DNA of 64,000 bases, taken from IMG/VR virus record IMGVR_UViG_3300025270_001776. One strand, 5' to 3'. Source of the stretch: an uncultured virus (IMG/VR IMGVR_UViG_3300025270_001776) (Duplodnaviria > Heunggongvirae > Uroviricota > Caudoviricetes). The notes under the pieces are model-generated. The model was not told the DNA's origin. It saw only the letters and a list, made by a program, of their open reading frames with translations, and searched no databases. The position numbers were made by a program, and so were the translations under genes. Below are positions 361 to 63,226 of this stretch, piece after piece; within the stretch, counting starts at the first letter, position 1, and each line of letters opens with the position of its first letter.

Positions 361-387
361 AGCCCCGCTTCGGCGGGGCTTTCTTTT
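361..387. terminator. Intrinsic terminator between convergent genes
   Basis: AGCCCCGC-TTCG-GCGGGGCT perfect 8-bp stem with UUCG tetraloop, followed by TTCTTTT on +. Confidence 0.9.
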
Positions 388-1297
388 ATTTCTTGAGGTC
401 ATTATATATATAACTAGCAACTGCAATATCTTCAATAGCTAATCCGGTAGAATCAAATAGTGATATATCAGAATCCAAACGATTAAAATCAGGACTGACT
501 ACTTCAGACAAGTTGATAAAGTTATCCTTATTTTTGGTATGTTGAGATTCTCCAGAATGAAATGCCTGAGCTTTATCGTCCACAACACATATATTACATA
601 CATCTCCCAAATTATTTTCAAACTCCTGTTTGCCTTCTGCATCTGCTCCAATAGCATTAATGTGCATACCGGGTTTAAGCCATTCTAACTTAATAAAAGG
701 TTTTCTTGAGGGGGTTAGGGTGGTTAATATATCGCTGCCACACACGCACTCTTCTAGCGTTTCACATACAATAGTATTACCGCCAAAAATTGCTACTAAA
801 TGATCACATTTAGCCTGATCTAAGTCAAACAATTTGATATGCTTTATATCTCTTACGTTTAAAATAGCTTCGATTTGGTATTCTGTTTGGAATCCACATC
901 CTACAAAAGCTGCAACTGTAGAATCCTTTTTAGAAAGATATTTTGTGGCAACGCCGGTAACGGCTGCTGTTCTATAAGAAGTGATTAGCATACCATCCAT
1001 CATAGCTATGGGATATCCTGTATCAATATCGTTTAACATAATTACTGCTGATACGCTGGGACCAAATTTATTTTTTTCATTATTGGGAAAAATAGAAGCC
1101 CATTTAATACCTACTGCGTTACCAAATCTAGCTGGCATTGCCCTAAAGTCATTTTCTCCATCCAGCTCCAAATAAATTTTAGGGGGCATTTGTCCTTTGT
1201 CTGGATTTTGAAAAACATCTTCCATTATTTTGATGATAGGTTTCATAACAAGATAGGGAAGAATGTCTTTTTCTTTTATTTGTTTGATGTTATTCAT
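386..1297 (-). CDS. Ornithine cyclodeaminase / mu-crystallin family protein
   Basis: AMPA..GIKW, ITSYRTAA, VGCGFQ Rossmann motif, HINAIGAD, LFDSTGLAIEDIA. Confidence 0.9.
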   Translation of the reverse strand: MNNIKQIKEKDILPYLVMKPIIKIMEDVFQNPDKGQMPPKIYLELDGENDFRAMPARFGNAVGIKWASIFPNNEKNKFGPSVSAVIMLNDIDTGYPIAMMDGMLITSYRTAAVTGVATKYLSKKDSTVAAFVGCGFQTEYQIEAILNVRDIKHIKLFDLDQAKCDHLVAIFGGNTIVCETLEECVCGSDILTTLTPSRKPFIKLEWLKPGMHINAIGADAEGKQEFENNLGDVCNICVVDDKAQAFHSGESQHTKNKDNFINLSEVVSPDFNRLDSDISLFDSTGLAIEDIAVASYIYNDLKK

Positions 1298-2381
1298 GGA
1301 TTTCTAGCTCATTAAGAAGTGTATTGAATAGAGAAACTGGAACATCCTGATATCCTAATGGCCTATTAAGGCTGTTTATATTAGGATTATCCTCTAGACA
1401 AGCAAATATGGCAGCGACTAACCCTCCAGATGTGGCACGCTGCATGGCAGAATAACCGTCTTTAACTCGTACAAGGTTGGTTTTTCTGTATTTATCGTTG
1501 GTACTAGTGGCTTCTACGTCTACAATAACTACATCATCAAACTTTCGGTGGTCATCACGAAATAACGCTCCTAGCTGGGTGGCATTGAATTTTCTTTGTT
1601 CCAAAAAATAAGAGACGAAATCTCTATGTCCTTGGTATCTTAACGTTTTATAGGAACAGTTATATACGCCACGATCTTTCATGAGGTTTAATGTGTGTGA
1701 TATTCCCCCACTTGTAGTGAAGGCCTCTAAGTATTCTATAGTAAATGATTCTAATTTGGAAGATTGTATTCTTACATATTCTGTTTCTTTGAGAGGGGGA
1801 ATTTTTTTGAATTCTCCATCTATCAAAATCTCACAATCGTCTACATACTCATTGTATAAGCCCTGAACTGACCAAGTTGGCCTATAGTTAAATGGATCTA
1901 CGGCTTCTGGTACCTTCCTCGCTGGAATTCCACCACACCTAATTTTAACTTCAATAGGAGTTTCTAACATTTCATGATAAGCTTCTTCTGCCATAATATT
2001 AGCCCATCCGGGTGCCAAACCTAAATCAGTAAAAACGGTAGCGTTATTTTCTTCAGCCATTTGGTTAATTTTATTGCTAGTAGGTACTGATCCACCAAGG
2101 TCACAGTATAAAATTTTACTTTTAATAGCAGCCTTAGCCACAGGTAAACTAACATTATATGGCAATGAAGAAATTATGAGGTCAAAAGTTTCATCATTTT
2201 TAAAGTCTGGATCATTGTGGTTACCTATAGAGATGGCCCTAAATTTTATATGTCTATCTGTTTCTAGAGTGGGGGAGGGATTTTCTATATCAAAAGTAGT
2301 GATGAAATGATCACCAAGTTTTTTAATCATATGGGCTATAGCGTGTCCCATTTGTCCAGTACCAAATAATGCTATATTCAT
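1290..2381 (-). CDS. Saccharopine dehydrogenase family oxidoreductase (lysine 6-dehydrogenase-like)
   Basis: GTGQMG NAD(P) motif, SSLPY, YCDLGG, GLAPG, CGGIP, TWSVQGLYNEY, YKTLRYQGH. Confidence 0.85.
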   Translation of the reverse strand: MNIALFGTGQMGHAIAHMIKKLGDHFITTFDIENPSPTLETDRHIKFRAISIGNHNDPDFKNDETFDLIISSLPYNVSLPVAKAAIKSKILYCDLGGSVPTSNKINQMAEENNATVFTDLGLAPGWANIMAEEAYHEMLETPIEVKIRCGGIPARKVPEAVDPFNYRPTWSVQGLYNEYVDDCEILIDGEFKKIPPLKETEYVRIQSSKLESFTIEYLEAFTTSGGISHTLNLMKDRGVYNCSYKTLRYQGHRDFVSYFLEQRKFNATQLGALFRDDHRKFDDVVIVDVEATSTNDKYRKTNLVRVKDGYSAMQRATSGGLVAAIFACLEDNPNINSLNRPLGYQDVPVSLFNTLLNELEIHE

Positions 2382-2382
2382 T

Positions 2383-3447
2383 CTAGTATCCTCTTACTGC
2401 ATTTTGACAAACCAATCCCCGTTCTTTAGTCCAATTTTGGGCTTCCTTGATAAGGCCATCACTCCAAAGCTTTAGAGCGCCGCTCTGCATTGCCCTCCCA
2501 AAGGAGAATGAAAGTCGCCAAGGCTTTTTTTCTTCATCGGTTGATAAACTATCTAATCTATTGATATGACTTAAATTTTCAATTGCTTCATCGTCTGATT
2601 GTCCCCCGCTTAAAAATGCGATAGCTGGTAGGGCACAGGGTACCTCATTTCTCAAACATTTAACCGTCATCTTAGCTACAGTTTCCGCATCTGCCCTATC
2701 TTTACTTTGATATCCTGATACAATCATATTTGGTTTTAGTATCGTATGCTCCAGTTCTACATCTTCATAATGTAGGGCGTCAAATAATATATGTAAAACC
2801 TGTCTTGTTATTCTATATGAATCTTCTATAGAATGTATTCCATTCATTAAAACTTCTGGTTCTACAATAGGTATAATACCGTGCGATTGACATTTTTTAG
2901 CATAACGAGCTAACGTCCAACAGTTTGCTAAAAGCCCTTGGGGGCTATTGTTCTGTAGGAGTACAGCTCTCCACTTAGCAAATTGTGCTCCCAATTCTTT
3001 ATACTCTACTAACCTTTGATCTAAGCCGTCAAGACCTTCTGTCAGGGTTTCATTAGAATCTACAAAATATGGTTTGGCACCTTTATCTACTTTAATTCCT
3101 AGCACTATATCGTTTTCAATAAGTGGTGCTATTGTTTCTTCATTTCTGAGGGTTTCATCAAAAAGGATAACACCACCCACTGACTTCTTAAGGTCCGGTG
3201 TAGAAAAAATAGTATGACGATATGAATGTCTAGTTTCAGGTGTAGATTCTTGACCCACAGACCCAAGTCTATTGGCTATTGTTCCGTCACTTTCATCAGC
3301 GGCCAAGATACCCCGAAAATTTTTGAAAATCTTTTTGATAGTCTGATGCACTAGACGTGTCTCCTCCTTTAAAAGTTCTTCGCGAAACTCTGGATCACGA
3401 TTGATACGGTTTTGCACGGTCTCTTTAAAATCCCTAGTTAATCCCAT
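2383..3447 (-). CDS. Class I fructose-bisphosphate aldolase with a ~30 aa foreign N-terminal extension (alternative GTG start at 3351)
   Basis: GILAADES, GIKVDKG, FAKWRAV, PIVEPEVL, Schiff-base ILKPNM, FLSGGQS, SFSFGRA. Confidence 0.92.
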   Translation of the reverse strand: MGLTRDFKETVQNRINRDPEFREELLKEETRLVHQTIKKIFKNFRGILAADESDGTIANRLGSVGQESTPETRHSYRHTIFSTPDLKKSVGGVILFDETLRNEETIAPLIENDIVLGIKVDKGAKPYFVDSNETLTEGLDGLDQRLVEYKELGAQFAKWRAVLLQNNSPQGLLANCWTLARYAKKCQSHGIIPIVEPEVLMNGIHSIEDSYRITRQVLHILFDALHYEDVELEHTILKPNMIVSGYQSKDRADAETVAKMTVKCLRNEVPCALPAIAFLSGGQSDDEAIENLSHINRLDSLSTDEEKKPWRLSFSFGRAMQSGALKLWSDGLIKEAQNWTKERGLVCQNAVRGY

Positions 3448-3448
3448 C

Positions 3449-3874
3449 TTATCTTTCTTTTTTCGTTTTTTCTGAAATTAAAAATGACTCTAAGTCACTT
3501 CTGGTGGTAGTAGAAAGCATTATATTTATTTCTGGTATAGCAAACAAGATCCAATGCCACATAAGACCACCTATAAGATAAGCAGGATTAATTTCTGGGA
3601 CAGCCTCAAGTATCATATAACTATAAGCCATACACAACATTATTCTAATAGGCATAAGTCCTAGTGTAGCGGGTACTAAAAGCGCATTGTTGTTATGAAA
3701 TCTCCAAAAGGGAATCATCCAACTCAATGTAAAAATTAACATTGGAGGAATGGATGCTAGTAAGGTTTTTCCTAATATAGGTTTAATCATATACAAAGGT
3801 AACACAACGATCAAAAACGAACACGCTATTAAACTTACGAGCAAAATTAGATTATGTTTTAAAACTGTATTCAT
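3449..3874 (-). CDS. Hypothetical integral membrane protein (~4 TM)
   Basis: Four hydrophobic segments; tightly packed within the cluster. Confidence 0.6.
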   Translation of the reverse strand: MNTVLKHNLILLVSLIACSFLIVVLPLYMIKPILGKTLLASIPPMLIFTLSWMIPFWRFHNNNALLVPATLGLMPIRIMLCMAYSYMILEAVPEINPAYLIGGLMWHWILFAIPEINIMLSTTTRSDLESFLISEKTKKER

Positions 3875-3877
3875 ACA

Positions 3878-5095
3878 TCAACTTTCCTTTTGTAATTCAT
3901 AAATAGCATCATCAATAAAACTACAAGCGATATCTGCGTCCTCCTTAGAAAATGTTAAAGCAGGCCTTAGTCTAATAGACTTTGTTCCACATGTTAATAC
4001 TAACATTTTTTTTTGTAACACATCTTTCAATCTATCTCTTTTGGGTGTAGTATCTAAATCAAAGGCTATCATCAACCCTTGGCCACGAACATTTTTTAGT
4101 TCTTTTCTATCGGATAAAGCATTCATAAAATGGGTGCCTACTTGAGCCGCATTTACTACTAGATTTTCTTTTTTTATAGTATCTATAATATATTGGAACC
4201 TTACCATATCTACTATATTGCCGCCCCACGTAGAATTAATTCTTCCACTAGTAGAGAAGACATTTTCTTTTACCTCGTCTATTCTTTCGGTAGCACAAAA
4301 CCCACAGACTTGTGTTTTCTTTCCGAAGCACATCATGTCAGGGATTACACCAAAGTGTTCATATGCCCACATTCTACCAGTAGCTCCTAATCCTGTTTGA
4401 ACTTCATCAAATATGAGCATGGATTCATATGTATCTGCTAAGCTTCTTAGCTCATGAAAAACTTGAGGGTTAAAATGTCTATCTCCTCCTTCCCCCTGAA
4501 TGGGTTCTACAACAATAGCTGCAACATCATGATGCATATATTGATCAAGCTTATCAATATCGTAAATAGTTGACCAATTAAACTGCGGGAAAAATTTTGT
4601 TTTATTTAATTCAGTATTAGTTAGAGATAATGTATATCCAGTACGTCCATGAAACGCTTTATACAGATGGACCACATCCATCCCATTGACTGATTCTTGA
4701 TTGTATATACCTAATTTTTGGGCCTTCCAATCAAATGCTGCCTTCAGAGCATTTTCTACTCCTAAGGCGCCCCCATCAATAAAAAAATAATGACTAAAAT
4801 CTGGAGTTATTTCTGCAAATTTTTCTACAAAATTCACGTAGTCCCTAGAATACATATCACTATTGGCTAGTTTATGGAGGGCCGCTTTTCCTAAGTGGAA
4901 TTGGGCACTAACAAGTGACGGATGATTCCAGCCTAGAGGTTGACTAGCAAACTGAGAATAACAGTCTAAAAAATGTTGACCTGTTTCTGCATCTATAATC
5001 CAAGAGCCATGGCTTTCCTCAGGGTCTACAACAACATGAAAACCATCAGTAAGTATATGCTTAGACAATCTACTCATAATGTCAGGGTTAGGCAT
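3878..5095 (-). CDS. lat: L-lysine 6-aminotransferase-like class III PLP aminotransferase
   Basis: FFIDGGALGVENALKAAFDWK, AFHGRTGYTLSLT, EPIQGEGGD, DEVQTG, FGKKTQVCG, RINSTWGGN. Confidence 0.88.
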   Translation of the reverse strand: MPNPDIMSRLSKHILTDGFHVVVDPEESHGSWIIDAETGQHFLDCYSQFASQPLGWNHPSLVSAQFHLGKAALHKLANSDMYSRDYVNFVEKFAEITPDFSHYFFIDGGALGVENALKAAFDWKAQKLGIYNQESVNGMDVVHLYKAFHGRTGYTLSLTNTELNKTKFFPQFNWSTIYDIDKLDQYMHHDVAAIVVEPIQGEGGDRHFNPQVFHELRSLADTYESMLIFDEVQTGLGATGRMWAYEHFGVIPDMMCFGKKTQVCGFCATERIDEVKENVFSTSGRINSTWGGNIVDMVRFQYIIDTIKKENLVVNAAQVGTHFMNALSDRKELKNVRGQGLMIAFDLDTTPKRDRLKDVLQKKMLVLTCGTKSIRLRPALTFSKEDADIACSFIDDAIYELQKES

Positions 5096-5868
5096 TTTAC
5101 AGCTCCTCCAGATTTCATGAATTCTGACATATTGCAGGTAATCGCATTACTAAACAGATTACCACAATTATTTGCAGGGGTAACGACTTGACTTTTAACA
5201 GAAACGCTATTGCATATAAAATTATATGCTTCCTCTTCCGACACACTGCTAATTTTGACACTAAGATTTTCTTGAGCAATATATTGTACCAATTTAGTCA
5301 TGCCACCTACCAACGATTCAGGAGTAAAGGCCTTTTCATAAAAACAAATATGATTATCAGAAACAAATAAACAGGTATCTAGATGGTAGAAGTTTGGATT
5401 TTTTAATTCTAAAGAGATATAATCTACGTCAAAAATATCTGCTACCATTGAGTGTGATTCTTTATCAGTTCTAAATCCATGTCCCATAAATAGCAAGTCT
5501 CTAAAGAAGAGGGCGTCTCCAGCTCCTTCAAAATGAATATCATCGGGAAGCAATATAGTTTCATAACCGTGTTGAAGAAACCATTTTTCAAATAGGTCTT
5601 TTTCACCGCGCCTTTCCTTGTGTTTAAAATTTGACAGAATCACTTGCTTGTCTTTTACAAGACCAGCATTAGCTGTAAAAACCATATCAGGAAAATCTGC
5701 ATGAGGACGTATATGTTCTATTTTTGCTCCAGCGGAGCTTAATGCATCAATCATAGTCCGCCATTGAGACATCGCCAGACTTTCATTTGGATTATTATGA
5801 ATATCCATCCACGGATTAATTTCGTAGCGGACATCAAAATATTCTGGGGAGCACAATAAAACTTTCAT
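5074..5868 (-). CDS. Amidinotransferase-superfamily enzyme, arginine dihydrolase (ArgZ N-domain)-like
   Basis: YEINPWM, PDMVFTANAG, FEGAGD, YHLDT, C-terminal GGAVKCLT catalytic Cys. Confidence 0.85.
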   Translation of the reverse strand: MKVLLCSPEYFDVRYEINPWMDIHNNPNESLAMSQWRTMIDALSSAGAKIEHIRPHADFPDMVFTANAGLVKDKQVILSNFKHKERRGEKDLFEKWFLQHGYETILLPDDIHFEGAGDALFFRDLLFMGHGFRTDKESHSMVADIFDVDYISLELKNPNFYHLDTCLFVSDNHICFYEKAFTPESLVGGMTKLVQYIAQENLSVKISSVSEEEAYNFICNSVSVKSQVVTPANNCGNLFSNAITCNMSEFMKSGGAVKCLTLTL

Positions 5869-7361
5869 TTCATCCCCTGTGGAAATGCTAGGGTTTCGTC
5901 ATGGTTTACTGTCCACGATACCTCGTGTGTTACAGCCCTGAAAGTCCGAGCAGCCGAAGGATATCCATTGCCAGACTTTTTCACGCCGCCAAACGCAAGA
6001 TGAGACTCAGCAGCAATAGAGCCGCCGTTCCAATAACACATTCCATACTCACAATAATCACGACATCGTCTAGCCTTTTTAAAGTCTTCTGTGACCACTC
6101 CAACAGCCAACCCATAATCTGTGTCATTATAAATACGAATAGCATCATCAACATTATCAAAAGGAATAATTGCAACGTGTGGTCCAAATACTTCATTTTT
6201 AAGATAAGGCGCGTCACGCCATTCAGTTTGGTAAGCTAGTGGGCTAACAAAATGTCCGGGCGGCGTATACTTAGGCTCTATCAGAACCGTAGCTTCTGAA
6301 TCTTGCATGACCATATCATTAAAACCTAATACTCTATCAAGTTGTTGTTGATTAATAAGAGGACCCATATAGGCATTTTCATTGGGCTGTGACTGAGTTA
6401 GCAAAGAGTCGTCTGTAAAAGGAGGTCCTGTCTTTATTTGTTTTGCATAATGGACAAAGGATTCACAAAACTTATCATAGATTCCCCGCTGTACAATGAT
6501 TCTTCCAGAAGATACGCATCTTTGCCCTGATAGTTTAAAAGCACTAGCAATAGAGGAAGAAACAGCTAGGTCAAAATTAGCATCATCAAACACTATAACA
6601 GCAGACTTACTACCCATTTCACAGGAACAAGTTTTGTGCCAGCTATGAGCGCAAACATATCTAATATGTTGACCTACTTCAGCGCTGCCTGTAAAGCAAA
6701 TATGGTCTACGTTCTGACGGGCGAGATAATCACCTACCTTACCGTCTCCATGAAGTAGATTAATTACTCCCGGAGGAACTCCAGCATCATGATACAGCTC
6801 CATAGCTAGTTGTGACGTGTAAGGAGCGTCTTCACTTGGTTTGAGAATGACAGTATTACCCTCAACAATAGCAGGGGCAGCACACCAAAAAGCACCAATG
6901 GCCAGAGGAAAATTCCAAGGACTAATAATAGCGACCACCCCTTTAGGTTTTCGCAGCATATAGGAGTCTTTTTCAGAAATTTCGGACGCAACGGATTCTC
7001 CCTGTGGGGTGCGCCCAGAGCCAAAAGCATATTGAGCCATGTGTAGTGCTTCATTTACTTCGGCAATAGACTCGTTATAATTTTTCCCAGTTTCATGGGA
7101 TATTGCACGGGCTAATACTTCTCGACGCTCTTCAATCAACTTAGCAACTTCATACAAATATTCTGCACGTTGCACCCTACTTACATCGCGCCAACTATGA
7201 AAAGCTTTTCTGGCATGGGCATACGTCTCTTCTATCTCTGCTTCGGTAGAGTTAAAAAAAACACCCAAAGACTGTTCGGTACAAGGATCTAGATTATCGA
7301 AGAATGAATCCGAAGCACTACCAACAAATTGACCATTAATATAGTTTTGAGCGTCCCACAT
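5865..7361 (-). CDS. Aldehyde dehydrogenase (semialdehyde dehydrogenase-like)
   Basis: ISPWNFP, KPSE, FTGSAEVG, EMGSK, GQRCVS catalytic Cys, EVFGP, FGGVKKSGNG. Confidence 0.95.
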   Translation of the reverse strand: MWDAQNYINGQFVGSASDSFFDNLDPCTEQSLGVFFNSTEAEIEETYAHARKAFHSWRDVSRVQRAEYLYEVAKLIEERREVLARAISHETGKNYNESIAEVNEALHMAQYAFGSGRTPQGESVASEISEKDSYMLRKPKGVVAIISPWNFPLAIGAFWCAAPAIVEGNTVILKPSEDAPYTSQLAMELYHDAGVPPGVINLLHGDGKVGDYLARQNVDHICFTGSAEVGQHIRYVCAHSWHKTCSCEMGSKSAVIVFDDANFDLAVSSSIASAFKLSGQRCVSSGRIIVQRGIYDKFCESFVHYAKQIKTGPPFTDDSLLTQSQPNENAYMGPLINQQQLDRVLGFNDMVMQDSEATVLIEPKYTPPGHFVSPLAYQTEWRDAPYLKNEVFGPHVAIIPFDNVDDAIRIYNDTDYGLAVGVVTEDFKKARRCRDYCEYGMCYWNGGSIAAESHLAFGGVKKSGNGYPSAARTFRAVTHEVSWTVNHDETLAFPQGMK

Positions 7362-7362
7362 A

Positions 7363-7851
7363 TTATAATCCTTTAGTACTGTTCATTAGGTTTTTAACAT
7401 TATTTTGACAAAATCCCTTATCTCCTCTCTCTATAAGCTCTATAATAATACCCCCTAAATGATCTAAAGGTTTAGTAAATATTTGTCTCATATTATCATC
7501 GGGGCAATCAATGACATTTTCTGTGAGAAACTCTACTCCCTTTTCCTTCCACTCCTTCACTTTATCTTCTATATGAAGAACTTGATAGGCCATATGATGA
7601 ATGCCCCCTGTTCCTCCTCGCTCTTGTACCCATTTGTCTACAATAGAATCAGTTGTTCCATTGGATACAAAAATTTCAGGAGAAATATGACGTGCGCCAG
7701 CAGCTGGCTCTAGGACTAGGCATTCGGCCGTAGACTCATCATCAAATTTAATTTCAAACTCTGTGACTGTTCTATAGTTCAGAGTTGCCTTCAGAAATTC
7801 TGCGGCCTTATGTCTGTCCGTAACTCTATATGCTATGTGATCTAATCTCAT
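7363..7851 (-). CDS. VOC-fold protein resembling the C-terminal catalytic domain of HPPD-type dioxygenases
   Basis: DHIAYRV, GGIHHMAYQV, QIFTKP...IELIER..GF..NVKNLM. Confidence 0.75.
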   Translation of the reverse strand: MRLDHIAYRVTDRHKAAEFLKATLNYRTVTEFEIKFDDESTAECLVLEPAAGARHISPEIFVSNGTTDSIVDKWVQERGGTGGIHHMAYQVLHIEDKVKEWKEKGVEFLTENVIDCPDDNMRQIFTKPLDHLGGIIIELIERGDKGFCQNNVKNLMNSTKGL

Positions 7852-7862
7852 TAAATGCTTTC

Positions 7863-7950
7863 AAAAAAAAACGGGTTTTATCGAGTTTGATCAGTACAGA
7901 ATGGGGGACCCGAAACCATCTGCAAACTAAAGCCGCTGACCAAACCGGCT
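7863..7950 (-). ncRNA. Structured RNA motif, copy 1 (unknown class; cis-regulatory, attenuator or ribozyme candidate)
   Basis: 79-nt core is 64/79 identical (ungapped) to 49581-49659; compensatory changes; G-U pairs favour the minus strand; ends in a U9 tract. Confidence 0.7.
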
Positions 7951-8290
7951 ATTCCAAAGTCTTTTTCTCCTGATTCCATTTCATCCATCCATTATCGGGG
8001 AGCCAGTTTCCATCTATATCTTTACGTTTGGGAAATAGTCCACCGCCCTTTTTGTTTACCCCAAAGGCCAACTTAGCATGACACTTCTTGCACTTCAGCT
8101 CAAAGTACTCATTACCTTCATTTTCCCTTACAATATATCTTAGGTTATCCGACCCACATTTGCCACATGTATTTTCAGAAAAAACCTCCTGAAATACAGA
8201 TAAATCCTTGAAAACATCCTTAACGGTTTCAGCTTCAAATTCAACCGATACGTTACCCGTGCTACATTTTACTCTCATAATCATCTCCAA
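7949..8290 (-). CDS. Hypothetical zinc-ribbon protein
   Basis: CGKC...CKKC. Confidence 0.7.
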   Translation of the reverse strand: MEMIMRVKCSTGNVSVEFEAETVKDVFKDLSVFQEVFSENTCGKCGSDNLRYIVRENEGNEYFELKCKKCHAKLAFGVNKKGGGLFPKRKDIDGNWLPDNGWMKWNQEKKTLE

Positions 8291-16254: not shown

Positions 16255-17042
16255 ACCGAAGTAACCTTTCTGTATTCTGTCTTATAGTCTGACAGTATAA
16301 AGTGGTATGTGCGTGAATCACCGTCAGTTGATCTTCTTCCAAAGTCAATTCCAATTATAGAATGTGTCCAATCAAACCAAGACTCACTAATGTCTGGCCT
16401 TGAGTCTCCTATTATATTATCCCATTGTGGATAACTTTCTTCTGGTATAACCCTTTTAATTTCATGGGGAGTCTGTTGCCATTTTTTGTGAAAAAAAGGA
16501 CCCGATATAGCACATTTAGCACCATCTTCTTTTAAAAGAGGGCTTTTCCATGTTTGATCATATTCACATGATAATGATTCATAATAGGCTAAATTGGCTA
16601 ATCTTAAACGTAATACGAAATCATCGTCTTCGCATCCTCCTCCATAAAATCTCTGATCAAACCATCCTATTTTTCTAAAGACTTCTTTAGTAAGAGCTAA
16701 AAAGGCTACATTCCATTGTCCCACTACTGCATAGCCCCTATGTAGAAGTTGTAGCATAAAAGTAATTTCTTCTGGATTTGGAATTACTCTGTCATTGACC
16801 AAAATAACAGTTTCAGTTGGAGAAGTTGCTACAGCTTCATTCATTAATTCTGAATATGAATCATATGCTTCTGGTCTTCTGTCAATTCTATTGTTCCAGT
16901 GTATATTAAATTCATTATTTAATGGCTCTAATTTTTGCATCTGATTTTCTACAACCTTAGAATCAGATCCGGCGTGTAAGCAGATGGTGATATCTTTTTC
17001 TAAATATTTTGGAGAAGGATTATGTGGATTTCTAGAAAACAT
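16251..17042 (-). CDS. Glycosyltransferase family 2-like
   Basis: ILVNDRV, KIGWFDQRFYGGGCEDDDF. Confidence 0.75.
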   Translation of the reverse strand: MFSRNPHNPSPKYLEKDITICLHAGSDSKVVENQMQKLEPLNNEFNIHWNNRIDRRPEAYDSYSELMNEAVATSPTETVILVNDRVIPNPEEITFMLQLLHRGYAVVGQWNVAFLALTKEVFRKIGWFDQRFYGGGCEDDDFVLRLRLANLAYYESLSCEYDQTWKSPLLKEDGAKCAISGPFFHKKWQQTPHEIKRVIPEESYPQWDNIIGDSRPDISESWFDWTHSIIGIDFGRRSTDGDSRTYHFILSDYKTEYRKVTSV

Positions 17043-31752: not shown

Positions 31753-33318
31753 TTAAATTTGGCACACTTTATTTACAATAATTCCACCATCTTCTTTCTT
31801 GGATGTCTGTCCCATTAGGATCACCATGTTACCTTCGACTAAAAATTCCTTGTTTTTTTGGTAGTCTTCTGGGAATATGATGACTGAATCTAGTACGCCA
31901 GAGCTATCTTCCACTGATAAAAATGCCATAAGTTGTCCCGGATTTTTACCCTTTTTAGTCTTATATTCTCTTAAGGAATTAATCTGCACAGCCACATTTA
32001 CTTTGCCTTTCATGTACCCAAGAGCTACATCTTTACATACAGTATTTACAAGGTTGCTTTGAACATAGTCTGTTTTACCGCAAGTTAAGGCGCATCCCAT
32101 GTATTTCTCTTCCGTATCGGCAATCCATATGGGGTCATCTTTGATATCATAAAATGGGTTTTCTAGGGAGTTTTTGATATCTACTACTGTAATCAGTCTT
32201 CTAGAATTAATCTTGAGATTATTGATCATATATCCTATACATTGAATAAGAGTCTCATGGTTGGAATAATTCTCTTTGATATATTTTTGTTCTCTTGCAG
32301 ATAGTTGTTTCCAGCTGTCAAACTCATATAGCATTTCATTTCTGTTCTTGTTATTATTTTTACCATTAAAAGCCCCTACAGAAATCAAAGCCACCACAGC
32401 CTGTTTATTCAAAATGGAACATAAGTTATTTAAAATATCAAGCCAATTCCAATCATCTATAGTCTTGTTCAAAATCTCTTCTGTTTCAGGAAGAAACTTG
32501 TTTATCTTATCACATTCTACTTCGCCCACATGTTTAACATTATTGATACCAAAGTAAATTGTTTTTGAGACAGACTGAAAGTTTTTATATAGATGCTTCA
32601 AACGGGGAGGATATACTTCAATATCATTCATTTTAGCATCAGTCACTAGCTCTTTAATTTCTTGTTTGGGGTCTGGTTTTCTTTTTGCATGATTAAGGTA
32701 AGTCTTAAAAAATCTCACGGGACGATAGCACTTACAGTATGCACTCCAATAGGCATTGATAGCATAGCTAACAGCGTGGGACTTGTTGAAAGCATAACGA
32801 TTGGATTTTTCAATCCATGAAAAAATCTCTTCAGCGACTGCCGTAGTAACAGTGCCTTTATTTTTTGAGCCTTCTAGAAAAGACTTCTTGACTTCTGTCA
32901 TCAAGCCAGCTTTCTTTTTTCCGATAGCCTTACGTAATGAGTCGGCATCCTTTAGACTAAAACCTGCCAGTTCTTGAGCTATCATCATGGACTGCTCTTG
33001 ATAAACAAGCACCCCATATGTTTCTTCTAGGATGCGTTCTAAAGATTCATGTGGATATGTTACAGGATCAGTTTTGGATTTTCTATCTACATAATGTTGC
33101 GTCATAGACTTATCATCCGTAAAAGCTTTAAGACAGCCGGGACGGATTAGTGAAATAAGAGCGGCTAGTTCTTGAATATTTCGGGGGGCTACCCTTCTAG
33201 CCCATGAACGTCCGAGTTGCGACTCTAGCTGAAATACTCCCTTTGTCCTACCATCACATATGAGATCCCACACCCTATCATCGTGAAAATCGTTCATGTT
33301 AAACGTAAAATTCGCCAT
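31753..33318 (-). CDS. dnaE: DNA polymerase III alpha, C-terminal half (fingers, HhH, OB); start at 33318 or 33297
   Basis: TKGVFQLES, SLIRPG, TYGVLVYQEQ, ADSLRKAIGKKK, YAFNKSHAVSY, C-terminal OB fold (MAFLSVED). Confidence 0.92.
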   Translation of the reverse strand: MANFTFNMNDFHDDRVWDLICDGRTKGVFQLESQLGRSWARRVAPRNIQELAALISLIRPGCLKAFTDDKSMTQHYVDRKSKTDPVTYPHESLERILEETYGVLVYQEQSMMIAQELAGFSLKDADSLRKAIGKKKAGLMTEVKKSFLEGSKNKGTVTTAVAEEIFSWIEKSNRYAFNKSHAVSYAINAYWSAYCKCYRPVRFFKTYLNHAKRKPDPKQEIKELVTDAKMNDIEVYPPRLKHLYKNFQSVSKTIYFGINNVKHVGEVECDKINKFLPETEEILNKTIDDWNWLDILNNLCSILNKQAVVALISVGAFNGKNNNKNRNEMLYEFDSWKQLSAREQKYIKENYSNHETLIQCIGYMINNLKINSRRLITVVDIKNSLENPFYDIKDDPIWIADTEEKYMGCALTCGKTDYVQSNLVNTVCKDVALGYMKGKVNVAVQINSLREYKTKKGKNPGQLMAFLSVEDSSGVLDSVIIFPEDYQKNKEFLVEGNMVILMGQTSKKEDGGIIVNKVCQI

Positions 33319-33988
33319 TTGCAAAAGCCTTTTCAAATTTGGTTTTTTCTGCAAGCTTTCTTTGGAACTTCAAAAATTTAATTAAAATGTTAGCTGTATC
33401 CTTAACATCCTGAAGAGCATCGTGAGCTTTCTCTTTTGATTCTTCTGGGAAGCCAAAATATTCACGGAGGTAATCCATGTTTAAGGATTTTACATCTTTA
33501 TTGTTTTCCGTCCATGAAAAAACCATGTCCATCAAATCAAGTTTAAAGATAGGATTAAAAAGTTTTTGTCTACCCTTAGTGTCGGTTGGCCCATGCTCTT
33601 CACACATTCGATGCACTATAGGCAAATCAAATCCAATAATATTATATCCGGCGGCTATTGGCGCAGTGTAACTAGATTTTCTGAAATTATATTTGTCACA
33701 GAACTGTCCAAATTTTTTCCAAACTGTCTTAGGGAGAGGTGCTTTCGCTAGTTTGTCCCTTGTCTTATGCGTAATTGTTAAAGCTTCATCTTCAAGCGGA
33801 TCAACACCTGCCGCCACAGCCTTTTCCTCATCTACTATTGGCCTCATCTCACTATTAAAAACACCTCCGGGTTGAAGGGTTAATTTTCTAGCATGGATGG
33901 CAATTGCTGCTATCTGAGTAGGTTGCGTCATCAGTGGATTACGACTACCAGTTTCAAAATCGAAGACAATAATATCTCTATAGTTCAT
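33299..33988 (-). CDS. DEDDh 3'-5' exonuclease (DnaQ/epsilon-like)
   Basis: FDFETG, GYNIIGFD, AHDALQD. Confidence 0.88.
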   Translation of the reverse strand: MNYRDIIVFDFETGSRNPLMTQPTQIAAIAIHARKLTLQPGGVFNSEMRPIVDEEKAVAAGVDPLEDEALTITHKTRDKLAKAPLPKTVWKKFGQFCDKYNFRKSSYTAPIAAGYNIIGFDLPIVHRMCEEHGPTDTKGRQKLFNPIFKLDLMDMVFSWTENNKDVKSLNMDYLREYFGFPEESKEKAHDALQDVKDTANILIKFLKFQRKLAEKTKFEKAFANGEFYV

Positions 33989-34227
33989 TAGGATGTCCCT
34001 TCTACAATTTCAAAGAATTTATCTAACGCATCATCAATATTTCTATATATTTTCGAGAACTTTACTTGTGAGCTACTTGCGTCTACTTGATACATACCGT
34101 CTTTTCTATCTCTATACTCTGGGAGCATCTTTCTTAGGTCACACACTGAGATCTTATTATACTCTAGAGCGCACCCATAATAAATAACTGATTTAAAGTC
34201 CTGCCTAAGGATGTTGTGGTCTCTCAT
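33988..34227 (-). CDS. Hypothetical protein
   Basis: Coupled ORF between dnaE-N and the exonuclease. Confidence 0.6.
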   Translation of the reverse strand: MRDHNILRQDFKSVIYYGCALEYNKISVCDLRKMLPEYRDRKDGMYQVDASSSQVKFSKIYRNIDDALDKFFEIVEGTS

Positions 34228-34229
34228 GT

Positions 34230-35777
34230 CTACTCCTTAATTTCCATAATTTTACTTAATAGATCAATACCTAATATATCAAACTTAACATGTCCCTGAC
34301 TTTCCAAGTCGCCCATTTCAAATGCAGCTATCATATTGCCGCTTTTATCCTGTGTCATAGGACAAATAGAATTCAGGCGATCCTTAGAAATAATGACACC
34401 AGCAGCGTGTTTACCCATAGATTTGTTTGTACCCTCTATTCGTATGGCTTGTTCAAAAAGTGGCGCTAAGGAGCCTTCTAGGGCTCCCTCGTTGATCTTA
34501 CACCACTTTCTAAGATTGTCTCCTTCGTTTAACAATGCCCATTTGATAATGGACCTTTCTTCCATACTTTCCAGCTGATCAGAAATATCTGCTTCGTTAG
34601 GAATACCCTTGGTGATCTCATTCATTTCAGCAAATGAAACGGCGTCATGCATTCTTAGTACTTCCTTAAGGGCTGCTCTTCCTTGTAGTCTACCAAATGT
34701 GATCATCTGAGACACTTTCTCTTCGCCATACTTTCTTTTAATATAATCTATTACTTCTTCTCGGTGTTCAGCTGGTACATCAATATCAATATCAGGTAGC
34801 GATATATATTCTTCGGTGTTTCTGCCTTCGTTATAGAATCTTTCAAAAATCAAATTATATTCAATAGGATCTACGTTAGTAATTCCTATAAGGTAGGATA
34901 TTAAACAGCCAGCTGCTGATCCTCGACCGGGACCAGCGAGCCAACCCTCTGATTCAATATGTCTAATGATATCTTGTACAATAAGAAAATATCCTGAAAG
35001 ATCTGCGCCAAATATGACATCTAGTTCCTTCTTTATTCTATCTACGTAGGCCTGTTTAGCCTGATCTGTTTTTACTTTACCTTGTGGAATTAATAAACGT
35101 TTCCACCCTTTTCTACATAACTCTGTTAAATAATCGTTTTCTTCCATACCATCTGGACATACAAATTTAGGAAGCATCGGCTTCCTTAAGATATCATATT
35201 CTTCACAGAGGTCAACTACTTGGTTCACTTTTTTGATTTCATTTGCATCAATACCCATACTTTCAAAGTCATCAGGAGAGGGGAGATAAAATTCATCTGA
35301 ATCAAAGAAGCGTCTGTCAGCCCCTTCTAGTTTCTTTTCTACTTTAGATAGAGTGGTTTTCATCCCAGAGCATAGTAATATTCTTTGTAGAATAGCATCT
35401 TCTTTCTGGGCATAATAGATTTCTCTTTCTCGTAGTGGTGAATCTAGTCGATACAGATTATCCTTTTTAGTCATCTTCTCTAATGTCGTATTAAAATTGT
35501 CTGTACCTATGGTTCCGGTTAGCTCTATCAGATCAAACCAGCCCGCTTTGTTTTTTGCTAAGAGACTAAAGTCGCCAAAATCACATCCTATAATTGGTTT
35601 AATATCCTCGGCTTGACACGCTTTATAAAAATTTACGGCGCCCGACAGTGATTTATAGTCAGTAATAGCGCACGCTTTATATCCATACTCCTTACATTTA
35701 GATACGATTTCATCAGGCTTACAAAAACCCCGAAGAAGACTGTAGTGCGTGTGTATACAGAGAGGAGCCCAGTTCAC
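34230..35777 (-). CDS. dnaE: DNA polymerase III alpha, N-terminal half (PHP, palm, thumb)
   Basis: HTHYSLL, AITD, GPGRGSAAG, FERF, PDIDID, KHAAGVII, ends at VKFDILG. Confidence 0.93.
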   Translation of the reverse strand: MNWAPLCIHTHYSLLRGFCKPDEIVSKCKEYGYKACAITDYKSLSGAVNFYKACQAEDIKPIIGCDFGDFSLLAKNKAGWFDLIELTGTIGTDNFNTTLEKMTKKDNLYRLDSPLREREIYYAQKEDAILQRILLCSGMKTTLSKVEKKLEGADRRFFDSDEFYLPSPDDFESMGIDANEIKKVNQVVDLCEEYDILRKPMLPKFVCPDGMEENDYLTELCRKGWKRLLIPQGKVKTDQAKQAYVDRIKKELDVIFGADLSGYFLIVQDIIRHIESEGWLAGPGRGSAAGCLISYLIGITNVDPIEYNLIFERFYNEGRNTEEYISLPDIDIDVPAEHREEVIDYIKRKYGEEKVSQMITFGRLQGRAALKEVLRMHDAVSFAEMNEITKGIPNEADISDQLESMEERSIIKWALLNEGDNLRKWCKINEGALEGSLAPLFEQAIRIEGTNKSMGKHAAGVIISKDRLNSICPMTQDKSGNMIAAFEMGDLESQGHVKFDILGIDLLSKIMEIKE

Positions 35778-49571: not shown

Positions 49572-49659
49572 AAAAGAAAACGGGTTTTAACTGAATTGAT
49601 CAGTACAGAGAGGAGAACCCGAAACCTCCTGCATAATAAAGCCGCTGATCAAACCAGCT
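49572..49659 (-). ncRNA. Structured RNA motif, copy 2
   Basis: Homologous to 7872-7950 with compensatory changes; overlaps the stop codon of the DUF1501 gene; followed by UUUUCUUUU. Confidence 0.7.
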
Positions 49660-50917
49660 CTGTCATGGGATCTCGGTGATCTAGAAGATACTGAGGTCGT
49701 CCACCTGTGTCGATAACCGTTGTGTCTCTAGGATCAATTCCAAGATTATAATAAATCGTACTAGTAATTTCCTGAAAATGAACTGGGCGCTCGACAGCGT
49801 GTTCACCAAGACGATTTGTTTCGCCAATCGTTTGACCAAGCTTCATACCGCCACCAGCCAATAGAGCGCAACTAACTTGTGGCCAGTGATCTCGGCCAGC
49901 ACCCTTATTAATCTTGGGTGTACGACCAAACTCGCCCCATACCACAACAGTCACATCATCAAGCATCCCTCTTTCATCCAGATCCTCAACCAATGCGCTG
50001 ACACACTGATCAAGCTTACCACCATGATCTCTAACGAGATCAAAGTTAGCGCCATGACTATCCCATCTACCATAAGAAAGGCTCACAGAACGCACTCCTA
50101 CCTCAACCAAACGGCGTGCCATGAGGACGTGTTCATTAACAGTAGGAGCACCGTCATACTGATACTTAAAAGGCTTACCATCTCCATAACGTTCACGGAT
50201 TTTAGGGTCCTCCTGACTTAAATCCAGAGCGTCTACAAGTTTACTAGAAGTAAGTACATCAAAAGCCTCATCAATGAAAACATCTCCTTCAGGCTTAATA
50301 TTACCAAGGCCTGTTAGCAATTCTTTTCTAGATTGTAGCCTATCTTTAGTAATACCATTAAGGGTGAGGTCAGACATCATCTCGCCATTAGGTTTAAAAG
50401 GTCTATGGGAGATACCGAGATAGCCCTCACTACCAGACTCAGACCACGGGCTATGTTTGGTTTTAGCTGCCAGACCAATAGTGGCTGGAACTGATACGTC
50501 TACGGGACCTTGAATCTTTGAAGCAACCGATCCAATACTAGGATAGCCAACTCCAACGATCTTTTCATTTCGTCCCCATCCGCTCATACATTGATAGCCG
50601 TCATGACCACCAGCCGAACCGATCACTGAACGAATAGCAACAAACTTATCCATCATAGAGGCGATCTTAGGAAAACTTTCTCCAATCTGGATACCGGGTA
50701 CTGACGTATCGATAGGCTGGAATTCGCCTCTAATTTCTGCGGGAGCATCTGTTTTAATGTCCCACATGTCTTGATGCGGAGGACCTCCTCCTAAAAATAT
50801 ATTAATAACAGCTTTGTGTTGGGTGCCGTTTTGTTGTTGTGCCTGTAAAATATTAGGCAAAGACAACATACCAAAACCGCCCACCGATAAGAATCCTCTT
50901 CTTGATAGTCTAAACAT
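49649..50917 (-). CDS. DUF1501 family protein with Tat signal
   Basis: SRRGFL, FLGGGPPHQDMWDIK, ARRLVEVGV, WDSH, LVEDLDERGMLDD, WGEFGRTP, GRDHWP. Confidence 0.92.
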   Translation of the reverse strand: MFRLSRRGFLSVGGFGMLSLPNILQAQQQNGTQHKAVINIFLGGGPPHQDMWDIKTDAPAEIRGEFQPIDTSVPGIQIGESFPKIASMMDKFVAIRSVIGSAGGHDGYQCMSGWGRNEKIVGVGYPSIGSVASKIQGPVDVSVPATIGLAAKTKHSPWSESGSEGYLGISHRPFKPNGEMMSDLTLNGITKDRLQSRKELLTGLGNIKPEGDVFIDEAFDVLTSSKLVDALDLSQEDPKIRERYGDGKPFKYQYDGAPTVNEHVLMARRLVEVGVRSVSLSYGRWDSHGANFDLVRDHGGKLDQCVSALVEDLDERGMLDDVTVVVWGEFGRTPKINKGAGRDHWPQVSCALLAGGGMKLGQTIGETNRLGEHAVERPVHFQEITSTIYYNLGIDPRDTTVIDTGGRPQYLLDHRDPMTELV

Positions 50918-50930
50918 CTTAATCTCCTAA

Positions 50931-59362: not shown

Positions 59363-59406
59363 AAAAAAGAAAAAGTGAGTCGCTATACTCCATTATAGCA
59401 ACTCAC
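59363..59406 (-). terminator. Intrinsic terminator overlapping the promoter -10 box
   Basis: GTGAGTTGCTATA-ATGGAG-TATAGCGACTCAC 13-bp stem followed by TTTTTCTTTTTT. Confidence 0.8.
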
Positions 59407-59420
59407 CTTCAATATGTCAA
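59392..59420 (-). promoter_or_regulatory. Consensus sigma70 promoter
   Basis: TTGACA (59420-59415), 17-nt spacer, TATAAT (59397-59392); A-tract UP-like element upstream. Confidence 0.85.
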
Positions 59421-61863: not shown

Positions 61864-62314
61864 TTTTGATCCTTTGCGTTATTACAGTAGTAGATATCGC
61901 TTTAGCGTAAGGAATAAACAAAATTTCACACTTCATATCGTCCAGTAATTCTTGTGTTAGATTTAAATAACTCAAATAATTTTTTGTTTTCCAGTTTGAC
62001 CCCAAAACAATGTAATGGGGCTTACACACCTGTTCTATAAGATATCGCTGGTTGTGTTCAGAAGGAACTATAAACGCTTCGTCTACATATTGACATGCTT
62101 GAACGACTTCTAGGCGCTCATTACCATGCATAATTGGCGTATTTTCCTCAGAAAAATGATCTCCTTCAATAGCCACAATCAGCTTGCAGCTCTGACTGAA
62201 AACATAGGCGCGATTTTTTTTTCTAAAATATCTTTTGATGTTTCTAAGAAATTTGACATGTCCGTAATGGAACAAATCAAATGTGCCTCTGGTGTAAACT
62301 ATGGGGGGGCTCAT
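61838..62314 (-). CDS. Cytidylyltransferase (TagD/RfaE-like, HxGH)
   Basis: GTFDLFHYGH, ER...CQYVDE, ISTT. Confidence 0.85.
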   Translation of the reverse strand: MSPPIVYTRGTFDLFHYGHVKFLRNIKRYFRKKNRAYVFSQSCKLIVAIEGDHFSEENTPIMHGNERLEVVQACQYVDEAFIVPSEHNQRYLIEQVCKPHYIVLGSNWKTKNYLSYLNLTQELLDDMKCEILFIPYAKAISTTVITQRIKNDKFNSPN

Positions 62315-62391
62315 GTCTATGCCTTTGTGTGTGTGTTCTTAAATCTTGGAGAAGAAAGGACTCAGTCGGAAAAGAAGAGGTAGGACATACC

Positions 62392-63225: not shown

Positions 63226-63226
63226 C

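What the first reader, a model, noticed from the sequence alone, without database searches (positions are those of the whole stretch)
7863..7950. Two-copy pseudoknotted RNA motif with covariation, leading the amino-acid catabolism cluster
Seen: 7872-7950 and 49581-49659 align without gaps at 64/79 nt although the flanking genes are unrelated. Copy 1 on the minus strand reads AGCCG GUUUGGUCAG CGGCUUUAGUUU GCAGAUGG UUUCGGGUCC CCAUUCUGU A CUGAUCAAAC UCGAU AAAACCCG U9. An outer stem (UUGRUCAG/CUGAUCAA) encloses an inner stem with two compensatory changes (GCAG-AU-GG/CC-AU-UCUGU versus GCAG-GA-GG/CC-UC-UCUGU). The inner loop CGGGU can pair with the invariant 3' ACCCG (pseudoknot). The 5' AGCYG can also pair with CGGCU in both copies (second pseudoknot or alternative fold). 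Each copy starts at or just before an upstream stop codon, ends in a U-tract and lies ~20 nt before an ATG. I could not match it to any riboswitch or ribozyme consensus I know. Inference: an undescribed cis-regulatory RNA (riboswitch/attenuator, protein-binding site or processing element) gating phage gene blocks, here the Arg/Lys catabolic genes.
Basis: partly seen in the sequence, partly recalled or inferred. Interest (0 to 1): 0.9.

Follow-up and report, generated by a model that had tools for sequence, protein, structure and literature searches.

The report
Phage double-pseudoknot RNA module, TnpB-linked
The two look-alike stretches are lone copies of a small, intricately folded RNA module that a group of marine phages carries in many copies and that elsewhere travels together with a gene for a TnpB/Cas12f-type (RNA-guided nuclease family) protein; here it most likely marks and closes transcripts at the border between gene blocks and is not an amino-acid sensor.

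Summary
The two copies are 64 of 79 nt identical without gaps, while their flanks are unrelated. All four proposed helices covary once 25 distinct copies from related contigs are aligned. No Rfam family matches.

The module is not specific to the Arg/Lys genes. Related phage contigs place it before unrelated genes and as five tandem copies after a phage tmRNA. There the array is followed by a TnpB/Cas12f-like gene whose stop codon overlaps a further copy.

More distant homologues of that protein (34-36% identity) are flanked on both sides by sequence-diverged units of the same four-helix architecture. At one conserved phage site, 18 of 80 loci carry the protein and exactly those 18 carry units.

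The window's own record has two lone copies and no such protein in 103 kb.

My best reading is protein-less copies of a TnpB-element RNA module. Its last pseudoknot helix abuts a U-tract, which suggests a transcript stop or boundary element.

The parts
7863..7950 (-). Copy 1 of the module, including its U-tract. It starts inside the TAG stop (7951-7949) of ORF 7949-8290 and ends 11 nt before the ATG (7851) of the glyoxalase-family ORF.
   Evidence: R1 hit on the same stretch of the near-identical record (L052:4813-4902, 101 bits)
7946..7950 (-). Copy 1 helix A, 5' strand (AGCCG). It pairs with 7931-7935 (CGGCU).
   Evidence: 5 of 5 pairs covary in A2
7936..7943 (-). Copy 1 helix B, 5' strand (UUGGUCAG), which is the loop of helix A. 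It pairs with 7887-7894 (CUGAUCAA), so A and B form a pseudoknot.
7916..7924 (-). Copy 1 helix C, 5' strand (UGCAGAUGG). It pairs with 7895-7904 (CCAU-U-CUGUA, one bulge).
7908..7912 (-). Copy 1 helix D, 5' strand (CGGGU), in the loop of C. It pairs with 7872-7876 (ACCCG).
7863..7871 (-). Copy 1 U-tract (9 U), directly after the 3' strand of D.
49572..49659 (-). Copy 2 of the module, including its U-tract. Its first 11 nt (49659-49649) are the end of the DUF1501 ORF (stop TGA 49651-49649). The next ATG is at 49559.
   Evidence: the structure-only scan recovers this copy and copy 1
49655..49659 (-). Copy 2 helix A, 5' strand (AGCUG). It pairs with 49640-49644 (CGGCU, one U.G). The near-identical record G001 has CAGCU there, giving U-A.
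49645..49652 (-). Copy 2 helix B, 5' strand (UUGAUCAG). It pairs with 49596-49603.
49625..49633 (-). Copy 2 helix C, 5' strand (UGCAGGAGG). It pairs with 49604-49613.
   Evidence: best R2 hit in the window (49604-49631, E 0.58)
49616..49621 (-). Copy 2 helix D, 5' strand (CGGGUU). It pairs with 49581-49586 (AACCCG). The U-tract 49572-49580 follows.

Best explanation
The two stretches are protein-less, lone copies of an ~80-nt RNA module (88 nt with its U-tract).

Shown:
- The module folds into two interleaved pseudoknots. Helix A's loop forms helix B, and helix C's loop forms helix D with the 3' tail.
- In related marine phages, units of this architecture bound and accompany a TnpB/Cas12f-like gene. 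One unit sits in the place where TnpB guide (omega) RNAs are encoded.

Inferred:
- In the window the module is transcribed as part of the long leftward operons and folds as it emerges.
- Its last helix D lies directly against a U-tract. This probably stops or pauses RNA polymerase, or leaves a compact protected 3' end, at the border between gene cassettes.
- In effect it would be a pseudoknot-closed punctuation signal inherited from a mobile TnpB element.
- Whether the lone copies still bind a TnpB-like protein is open.
For: Structure:
- All four helices covary in the window's lineage.
- They covary again in 36 sequence-diverged units next to distant TnpB homologues: 98.9% of cells paired, 18 of 22 pairs changed on both sides, score 0.574 against 0.171 in shuffles and at most 0.093 when slid.
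- Two positions are mostly G.U on the sense strand (pairs 14-64 and 31-58), so the fold belongs to the strand of the genes.

Link to TnpB:
- In G002 the order is tmRNA, five units, a PF07282 protein of 422 aa, then a unit that starts at its stop codon, then another unit.
- Homologues at 34-36% identity carry units just upstream of the gene and overlapping or following its 3' end.
Nearly all lie beside the close clade and almost none beside other TnpB families.
- Of 80 loci sharing a conserved 138-aa gene, 18 hold the TnpB homologue and exactly those 18 hold units.
- Comparing the occupied L132 with the empty L233, the extra block runs from a unit's first base to a unit's last helix.

Stop or boundary role:
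- In every end-of-array or lone copy of the window's lineage, the U-tract begins 0-1 nt after D's 3' strand, whatever D's length. Copies followed directly by another unit have no U-tract.
- The modules sit between cistrons. Ordinary hairpin terminators are few in the window.
Against: - The window's own record (103 kb, estimated 67% complete) has no TnpB homologue. Its tmRNA is followed directly by a protein gene, without units. The lone copies therefore persist without a visible partner.
- Sequence-level linkage between the window's lineage and the distant units is weak: R1 E = 0.077 and 0.12, and R2 E = 0.58 on the C hairpin only. The link rests on shared architecture, a few shared motifs and position.
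- The distant units were picked by a scan that demands pairing, which inflates the percentage paired.
- Genes such as a DnaB-like helicase start 5-15 nt after the U-tract with no room for a promoter, so termination cannot be complete.
- A 5-8 bp pseudoknot helix, AU-rich in some copies, is an unusual terminator stem. The hairpin-based scans do not call these sites.
- No conserved transposon-adjacent motif was seen 5' of the units.
- There are no expression data.
Confidence: 0.5

Rival explanations
1. The lone modules are working 'ghost' guide-RNA genes. The module would be the scaffold, the DNA just 3' of it the guide, and a TnpB-like protein made elsewhere in the genome or by a co-infecting relative would use it to cut module-free alleles. 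This would drive homing of the module and its neighbouring genes.
For: - One unit occupies the canonical omega-RNA position at the 3' end of the gene.
- Like TnpB and Cas12 guide RNAs, the scaffold ends in a pseudoknot whose 3' strand lies at the scaffold's 3' edge (ISDra2 structure paper PMC10097598, passages read).
- In the distant relatives the last unit ends directly at native flanking sequence, without a U-tract.
- Protein-less omega-RNA loci that work in trans are on record for Fanzor (PMC10432273, passages read).
- Gene content differs right after the module between related phages.
Against: - In the window's lineage every terminal module is followed at once by 7-9 U. A guide would have to begin with a U-run or would not be transcribed.
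- Some units abut a tRNA or the next unit with no room for a guide.
- No TnpB homologue is present in the window's 103-kb record.
- The clade's RuvC triad is atypical: D, D, and D or H.
- No adjacent motif was found.
Confidence: 0.15
2. The module is an autonomous phage intercistronic element, such as a terminator/attenuator, RNase processing site or RNA-stability knot. TnpB elements would merely insert next to it or carry it along, and the protein would have no use for it.
For: - Lone copies are conserved in a record that lacks the protein.
- The juxtaposition of U-tract and helix D is precise.
- The placement at stop codon and ribosome-binding site recalls the intercistronic RNase III sites of T7 (recalled, not tested).
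- Arrays change copy number by unequal crossover between units, as in L085 against L093.
Against: - Gain and loss with the protein match exactly at one site: 18 of 18 against 0 of 62.
- A unit overlaps the coding 3' end of the gene in distant relatives.
- Units are confined to one TnpB clade.
Confidence: 0.2
3. It is a riboswitch or signal-sensing attenuator in which ligand binding decides whether helix D, and hence the stop signal, forms.
For: - The fold is compact, with invariant unpaired nucleotides: GU after A, UUA after A's 3' strand, and UAAA before D.
- Helix D abuts a U-tract.
- A and B might be alternative rather than simultaneous folds.
Against: - Downstream genes are functionally unrelated.
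- Up to five units stand head to tail with no gene between them, and some lack a U-tract.
- The paired sequences, not the junctions, are what differs between copies.
- No Rfam riboswitch matches.
Confidence: 0.05
4. It is a self-cleaving ribozyme or a nuclease-recognised processing signal that cuts transcripts at module borders, for example to free the tmRNA 3' end.
For: - Modules begin within 3 nt of the tmRNA 3' end, or at stop codons.
- They occur in tandem.
- The fold is a double pseudoknot.
Against: - No match to any ribozyme family of Rfam at E up to 10.
- The strand order A-B-A'-C-D-C'-B'-D' does not fit the HDV-like order. That comparison rests on my own recall of the HDV fold.
- The window's record has the tmRNA without any module.
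Confidence: 0.05

Closest known systems
TnpB omega RNA (guide-RNA scaffold of IS200/IS605-type TnpB, e.g. ISDra2; PMC10097598, passages read)
   Same: - It is encoded at or over the 3' end of a TnpB-family gene.
- It is a multi-stem scaffold whose last element is a pseudoknot strand at the scaffold's 3' edge.
- It is clade-specific and is gained and lost together with the protein.
   Different: - It is about 76-90 nt, against 116 nt for ISDra2.
- The helix order differs: here the pseudoknot partner is the loop of an inner hairpin, and there is a second pseudoknot at the 5' end.
- Units are repeated head to tail on both sides of the gene.
- In the window's lineage a U-tract follows where a guide should be.
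- No binding or guide activity has been shown.
Ghost omega-RNA loci of Fanzor elements (Saito et al. 2023, PMC10432273; passages read)
   Same: Copies of the RNA part of an RNA-guided-nuclease element persist without the protein gene and outnumber it.
   Different: - The ghosts are eukaryotic elements with inverted repeats of about 550 nt.
- Here the copies are single units of about 80 nt in a phage.
- The window's record shows no protein copy at all.
Intrinsic (Rho-independent) terminators
   Same: A helix's 3' strand is followed at once by a run of U, and the site lies at the ends of transcription units, for example after a tmRNA.
   Different: - The helix is a long-range pseudoknot of 5-8 bp, not a local GC-rich hairpin.
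- It is not called by the hairpin scans.
- Essential genes follow without a promoter, so any stop must be leaky or regulated.
Intergenic repeat elements such as REP/BIME and the PeSL cassettes of T4-type phages (recalled, not read here)
   Same: They are short structured repeats between genes, sometimes in tandem, found at junctions where gene content varies.
   Different: Those are simple palindromes, or promoter plus hairpin. This module has four covarying helices, including two pseudoknots, and a link to TnpB.

Membership tests
Any Rfam 15 family | Covariance-model match at or near the gathering score | tested here: not met
   No match in the whole window at gathering score. Around the copies at E up to 10, there were only mir-216 (E 3.9, outside the motif) and a snoRNA model on the other strand (E 7.9). 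Related loci gave only tmRNA and tRNA.
TnpB omega RNA | Encoded at or overlapping the 3' end of a tnpB-family gene | tested here: inconclusive
   Met for family members. L063:4280-4375 starts at the stop codon of the PF07282 ORF, and units overlap the ORF end in L128-L155. Not met for the two window copies, which follow unrelated ORFs.
TnpB omega RNA | Co-occurrence with the cognate protein | tested here: inconclusive
   At one conserved site, 18 of 80 loci have the protein and the same 18 have units. The other 62 have neither; 2 of those 62 had under 35 nt of upstream sequence to judge. In the window's own 103-kb record no homologue was found.
TnpB omega RNA | Scaffold ends in a pseudoknot strand followed by a guide of about 16 nt | tested here: inconclusive
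   The pseudoknot at the 3' edge is present and covaries. What follows is a U-tract in the window's lineage and native flank in the distant relatives. Guide function is not testable here.
TnpB omega RNA | Binds the protein and directs DNA recognition | not testable with these tools
   No tool for RNA-protein complexes was available.
Intrinsic terminator | Local GC-rich hairpin ending 0-2 nt before a U-tract | tested here: not met
   The scans call other sites, such as 56491-56459, but not the modules' U-tracts. The helix next to the U-tract is the long-range helix D.
Intrinsic terminator | RNA 3' ends form at the U-tract | not tested
   No RNA holder was listed, and the contigs laid were uninformative.
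Riboswitch | Consistent association with genes of one pathway or ligand | tested here: not met
   The genes that follow include glyoxalase and the amino-acid genes, a Cys-rich secreted protein, a DnaB-like helicase, an unknown 120-aa protein and further modules.
IS200/IS605-type transposon ends | Conserved short target or adjacent motif 5' of the left end | tested here: not met
   The 5' flanks differ (AAU|AG, CAG|AG, CUU|GG, UAA|GA, CUA|CU), as read. Boundaries are uncertain by a few nt.

The most novel reading that the evidence does not exclude
The lone modules would be protein-less guide-RNA genes scattered over the phage genome. A single TnpB/Cas12f-like enzyme, supplied by the same genome or by a co-infecting relative, would read each module plus its 3' flank as a guide. 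It would cut module-free alleles at that spot, so that repair copies the module and its neighbours across. In this window that cargo would be the whole Arg/Lys/ornithine catabolic gene block. This would amount to RNA-guided homing as a way of spreading auxiliary metabolic genes among marine phages.
Probability: 0.12. Interest if true: 0.9.

Novelty: new variant of a known kind. Interest (0 to 1): 0.65.

Why it matters
If the link holds, this is an undescribed guide-RNA-type scaffold family for a phage-borne TnpB/Cas12f-like clade. That clade has an odd RuvC triad. The RNA has an unusual modular, tandem, doubly pseudoknotted form, and lone copies sit exactly where gene cassettes, including metabolic genes, are exchanged between phages.

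It would offer a compact new RNA-protein pair to test. It would also offer a concrete mechanism for cassette shuffling in ocean viruses.

Even on the plainest reading it would be a natural example of a pseudoknot acting as the closing helix of a transcript stop signal.

Tried and rejected
- **Rfam:** no known family at gathering score or at permissive thresholds.
- **Cultured phages:** nothing like the module or the region in 50,697 phage records beyond chance 24-32-nt matches.
- **Third copy in the window (16.5 kb):** inside an ORF, so chance.
- **Pattern scan:** I set the gap wrongly, so all 28 loci are chance matches and a scan was wasted.
- **Relaxed pattern:** the 12 new loci score E of 0.44 or worse with R1, so chance.
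- **Genome contigs:** 6 stretches, none with the other motif features, so chance.
- **Metagenome contigs:** 29 stretches, of which I set aside 9 as chance on the same grounds.
- **Expression:** no RNA holder listed. The contigs laid covered a coding part only, and no ends were visible.
- **Shared promoter word TGGACTTT...TATAAT:** seen by eye before some copies, but absent from the window. Promoter-like sites before the TnpB gene are not above chance.
- **HDV-like, pistol and exoribonuclease-resistant folds:** considered from recall. The strand order does not fit HDV. The others could not be tested.
- **CRISPR-like repeat-spacer reading of the arrays:** rejected, because conserved and variable positions are interleaved.
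- **Cross-detection between the two lineages:** only weak with covariance models.
- **Literature:** The catalogue of 10,006 candidate viral RNAs (PMC10690425) was searched in 6 supplementary files for the contig numbers without a hit, but three files could not be searched (files 1, 2 and 4). The module may be listed there.
- **Left border at L225/L231-type empty sites:** it already resembles the 5' half of a unit. I have no explanation for this.

Full report
**1. The observation.**
On the minus strand, window 7950-7872 and 49659-49581 are identical at 64 of 79 positions without a gap. Equally long stretches beside them agree at only 15-28 of 79 (alignment). The upstream ORFs end inside the motif's first bases (TAG 7951-7949; TGA 49651-49649). 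Both copies end in a U-tract (7871-7863; 49580-49572). The next ORFs start at 7851 and 49559. The flanking proteins are unrelated:
- Copy 1 lies between an unknown 113-aa ORF and a glyoxalase-family protein that heads the aldehyde dehydrogenase, amidinotransferase-like, aminotransferase, saccharopine dehydrogenase and ornithine cyclodeaminase genes.
- Copy 2 lies between a DUF1501 protein and an unknown secreted-looking ORF, followed by PhoH.

All genes of the window run on the minus strand. The content (DnaB, primase, split DNA polymerase III alpha, RecA, ribonucleotide reductase, dUTPase, a sigma factor, PhoH) is that of a large phage.

A third partial match at 16539-16663 is inside an ORF and has 50 nt of extra spacing, so it is chance. 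Nested folding energy alone is unremarkable (z -0.42 and -1.25).

**2. The family in the window's lineage.**
Exact-pattern scans recovered the motif in 9 viral contigs and in further metagenome contigs (I set aside 9 of 29 stretches as chance). The 6 stretches from prokaryote genomes all look like chance. This gave 25 distinct copies (A2). On them:
- Helix A (5 bp) is paired in 100% of cells, and all 5 pairs change on both sides.
- Helix B (8 bp) is paired in 100%, with 2 covarying pairs.
- Helix C (9 bp with a bulge) is paired in 98.2%, with 2 covarying pairs.
- The covariation score is 0.232, against 0.107 in shuffles (0 of 500 reach it) and at most 0.105 for slid partners.

Divergent copies also change otherwise invariant pairs in a compensated way, such as UCAG/CUGA to UCGG/CCGA and GCAG/CUGU to AAAG/CUUU or GAAG/CUUC.

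The loop-tail pseudoknot D occurs in six sequence versions:
- CGGGU(U)/(A)ACCCG
- UGAGUUU/AAACUCA
- GUGCGUU/AACGCAC
- AACAUU/AAUGUU
- AGGGUUUU/AAAACCCU
- GAAUUUUU/AAAAAUUC

Of 26 parsed copies, 22 have a contiguous Watson-Crick run of 5-8. The other 4 pair with one bulged A. Shuffled loops reach 5 or more in 16% of trials and 6 or more in 4.6%.

Two pairs are predominantly G.U on the sense strand, so the structure belongs to the RNA, or single strand, of the gene orientation. Invariant unpaired letters are GU after A, UUA after A's 3' strand and UAAA before D.

No Rfam family matches, even at E up to 10.

**3. Contexts.**
The module is not tied to the amino-acid genes. It precedes a DnaB-like helicase, several unrelated small proteins and other modules. 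In G002, a 47.7-kb contig that is 99.9% identical to the window's record over 26 kb, five units stand head to tail directly behind a phage tmRNA. R1 finds 8 units in that contig.

Adjacent units always differ in the sequences of helices A and D. This is what one would expect if several units must fold independently within one transcript.

Units followed at once by another unit have no U-tract. Every last or lone unit has one, starting 0-1 nt after D's 3' strand, whatever D's length. L085 has one unit more than L093 at the same place. The single unit of L093 reads as a recombinant of the two, so copy number changes by unequal crossover.

**4. The turn: a TnpB/Cas12f-like gene.**
In G002 the array is followed, about 95 nt later, by a 422-aa ORF with the Cas12f1-like TNB domain (PF07282, E 1e-12). 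Its best solved relatives are Cas12f and TnpB. A divergent unit begins at its stop codon, and another unit with a U-tract follows. The same arrangement is seen in L070 and L076.

The protein has 22 relatives in the large protein collection, most at 34-36% identity and from marine sources. An alignment-based scan found 199 viral stretches encoding a relative, and 80 were fetched. Their flanks show tandem units of 70-85 nt with the same order of elements:
- a hairpin A whose loop pairs downstream as B;
- an inner hairpin C;
- a short linker;
- CAAAA;
- a tail that pairs with C's loop.

They lie just upstream of the gene and over or after its 3' end, often beside tRNA genes.

A scan that asks only for this pairing pattern, with no sequence, finds them there, against 9 hits in 190 kb of shuffled sequence. 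A version without helix A gives 50 hits on the gene's strand, 6 on the other strand and 5 in shuffles over 79 loci. Hits are nearly confined to the close clade and almost absent around other TnpB families.

I aligned 36 such units (A4). They are 98.9% paired. Of 22 pairs, 18 change on both sides, including all 7 of D. The score is 0.574 against 0.171 in shuffles and at most 0.093 when slid. The caveat is that these units were chosen by a pairing-based scan.

Shared sequence with the window's lineage is limited to the C hairpin (CAG-NN-GG UUU ... CC-NN-N-CUG) and the A-run before D. The models cross-detect only weakly: R1 gives E 0.077 and 0.12, at the expected place beside the gene. R2's best hit in the whole window is the C hairpin of copy 2, at E 0.58.

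**5. Gain and loss together.**
The gene downstream of the TnpB homologue in one relative (138 aa) has homologues in 80 fetched viral loci. tblastn finds the TnpB homologue in 18 of them. R2 finds units (E at most 0.01) in exactly the same 18 and in none of the other 62. Two of those 62 had under 35 nt of upstream sequence, and seven more had under 700 nt.

Comparing L132 (occupied) with L233 (empty), the extra block runs from the first base of a unit, right after the RecA-like stop codon, to the last helix of a unit, right before the native ribosome-binding site. Units therefore form both ends of the block.

At L225-type empty sites the left flank already resembles the 5' half of a unit, which I cannot explain. 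No common short motif precedes the blocks.

**6. What speaks against a simple guide-RNA reading.**
- The window's own record G001 (103 kb, estimated 67% complete) holds only the two lone units and no TnpB homologue.
- Its tmRNA is followed directly by a protein gene.
- In the window's lineage a U-run stands where a guide should start.
- Some units abut a tRNA or the next unit.
- The clade's RuvC positions read D, D and D or H, instead of D, E, D.

On the other hand, protein-less omega-RNA loci that work in trans are on record for Fanzor (PMC10432273, passages read). A pseudoknot strand at the 3' edge of the scaffold is the conserved feature of TnpB and Cas12 guide RNAs (PMC10097598, passages read).

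**7. Mechanism I consider most likely.**
Shown:
- the fold;
- its strand;
- its modular spread;
- its tie to a TnpB-like element.

Inferred:
- In the window the modules are relics or offshoots of such an element that now act in cis.
- As the RNA emerges, A and C form, then B, and finally the tail pairs with C's loop.
- This last helix lies directly against the U-tract, so it stops or pauses polymerase, or leaves a knotted 3' end that resists exonucleases.
- Genes follow within 5-15 nt, without room for a promoter, so any stop must be partial or regulated.
- The modules would then set the ratio of expression across cassette borders, here between the glycan-synthesis block and the amino-acid block, and between the DUF1501 pair and the PhoH/replication block.

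An earlier agent of this scan reached a similar 'mobile double-pseudoknot module, transcript-stop element' reading for a near-identical copy on other DNA (e1-5976978).

**8. Comparison and novelty.**
It works like a terminator or boundary element, and it descends from, or belongs to, a guide-RNA-type scaffold family. Membership in 'TnpB omega RNA' is not established for the window's copies: the position and partner criteria are met only by relatives, and the activity criteria are untestable here. It is not a member of any Rfam family.

Searches of the held literature found no description. One large catalogue of viral RNA candidates could only be partly searched. I rate it a new variant of a known kind.

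Noticed in passing
L063:3016-4284 and relatives P0001-P0022: The TnpB/Cas12f-like clade has an unusual RuvC triad. The first Asp is kept, an invariant Asp stands where Glu is expected, and the third position is Asp in the window's lineage but His in most relatives (SHLNAAKNI). It may be nuclease-dead or altered.
   Followed up: partly
L055:15105-15363 (G001) and L063:2207-2487 (G002): These phages encode their own tmRNA (tag AEPSLALAA). The two variants differ in length (259 against 281 nt) and in what follows: a protein gene, or the unit array with TnpB.
   Followed up: partly
window 59371-59420 (-): A full-consensus sigma-70-type promoter (TTGACA, 17 nt, TATAAT with TG) overlaps a 17-bp hairpin followed by a U-tract, just before the ORF that starts at 59361. 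This is a promoter-in-hairpin arrangement.
   Followed up: no
window 31753-35777 (-): DNA polymerase III alpha is split into two ORFs: PHP/NTPase part 34230-35777 and finger/HhH part 31753-33354. An RNase T-like exonuclease ORF (33299-33988) and a small ORF lie between them.
   Followed up: no
window 386-7851 (-): A metabolic gene block in a phage: glyoxalase-family protein, aldehyde dehydrogenase, DDAH-like amidinotransferase, class-III aminotransferase, class-I aldolase, saccharopine dehydrogenase and ornithine cyclodeaminase. It is closed by a GC-rich hairpin at 349-381.
   Followed up: no
window 8281-31372 and 60808-63952 (-): A very large sugar-modification or polysaccharide gene set in a phage: many glycosyltransferases, epimerases/dehydratases, FkbM methyltransferases, a UDP-glucose dehydrogenase-like protein and nucleotidyltransferases.
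   Followed up: no
window 49649-52181 (-): Two adjacent DUF1501 genes, a family typical of Planctomycetes-type bacteria, lie in the phage directly upstream of module copy 2.
   Followed up: no
L226, L227, L229, L232 about 2400-2500: Sites without TnpB carry a different hairpin before the 138-aa gene. Its loop (CCUC) can pair with that gene's ribosome-binding site (GAGG). It could be a simpler relative of the unit, or an unrelated translational control element.
   Followed up: no
L225/L231 about 2440-2500 against L207 about 940-1000: At empty sites the last ~45 nt of the upstream 125-aa gene already resemble the 5' half (A, B 5' strand, C 5' strand) of the first unit seen at occupied sites.
   Followed up: partly
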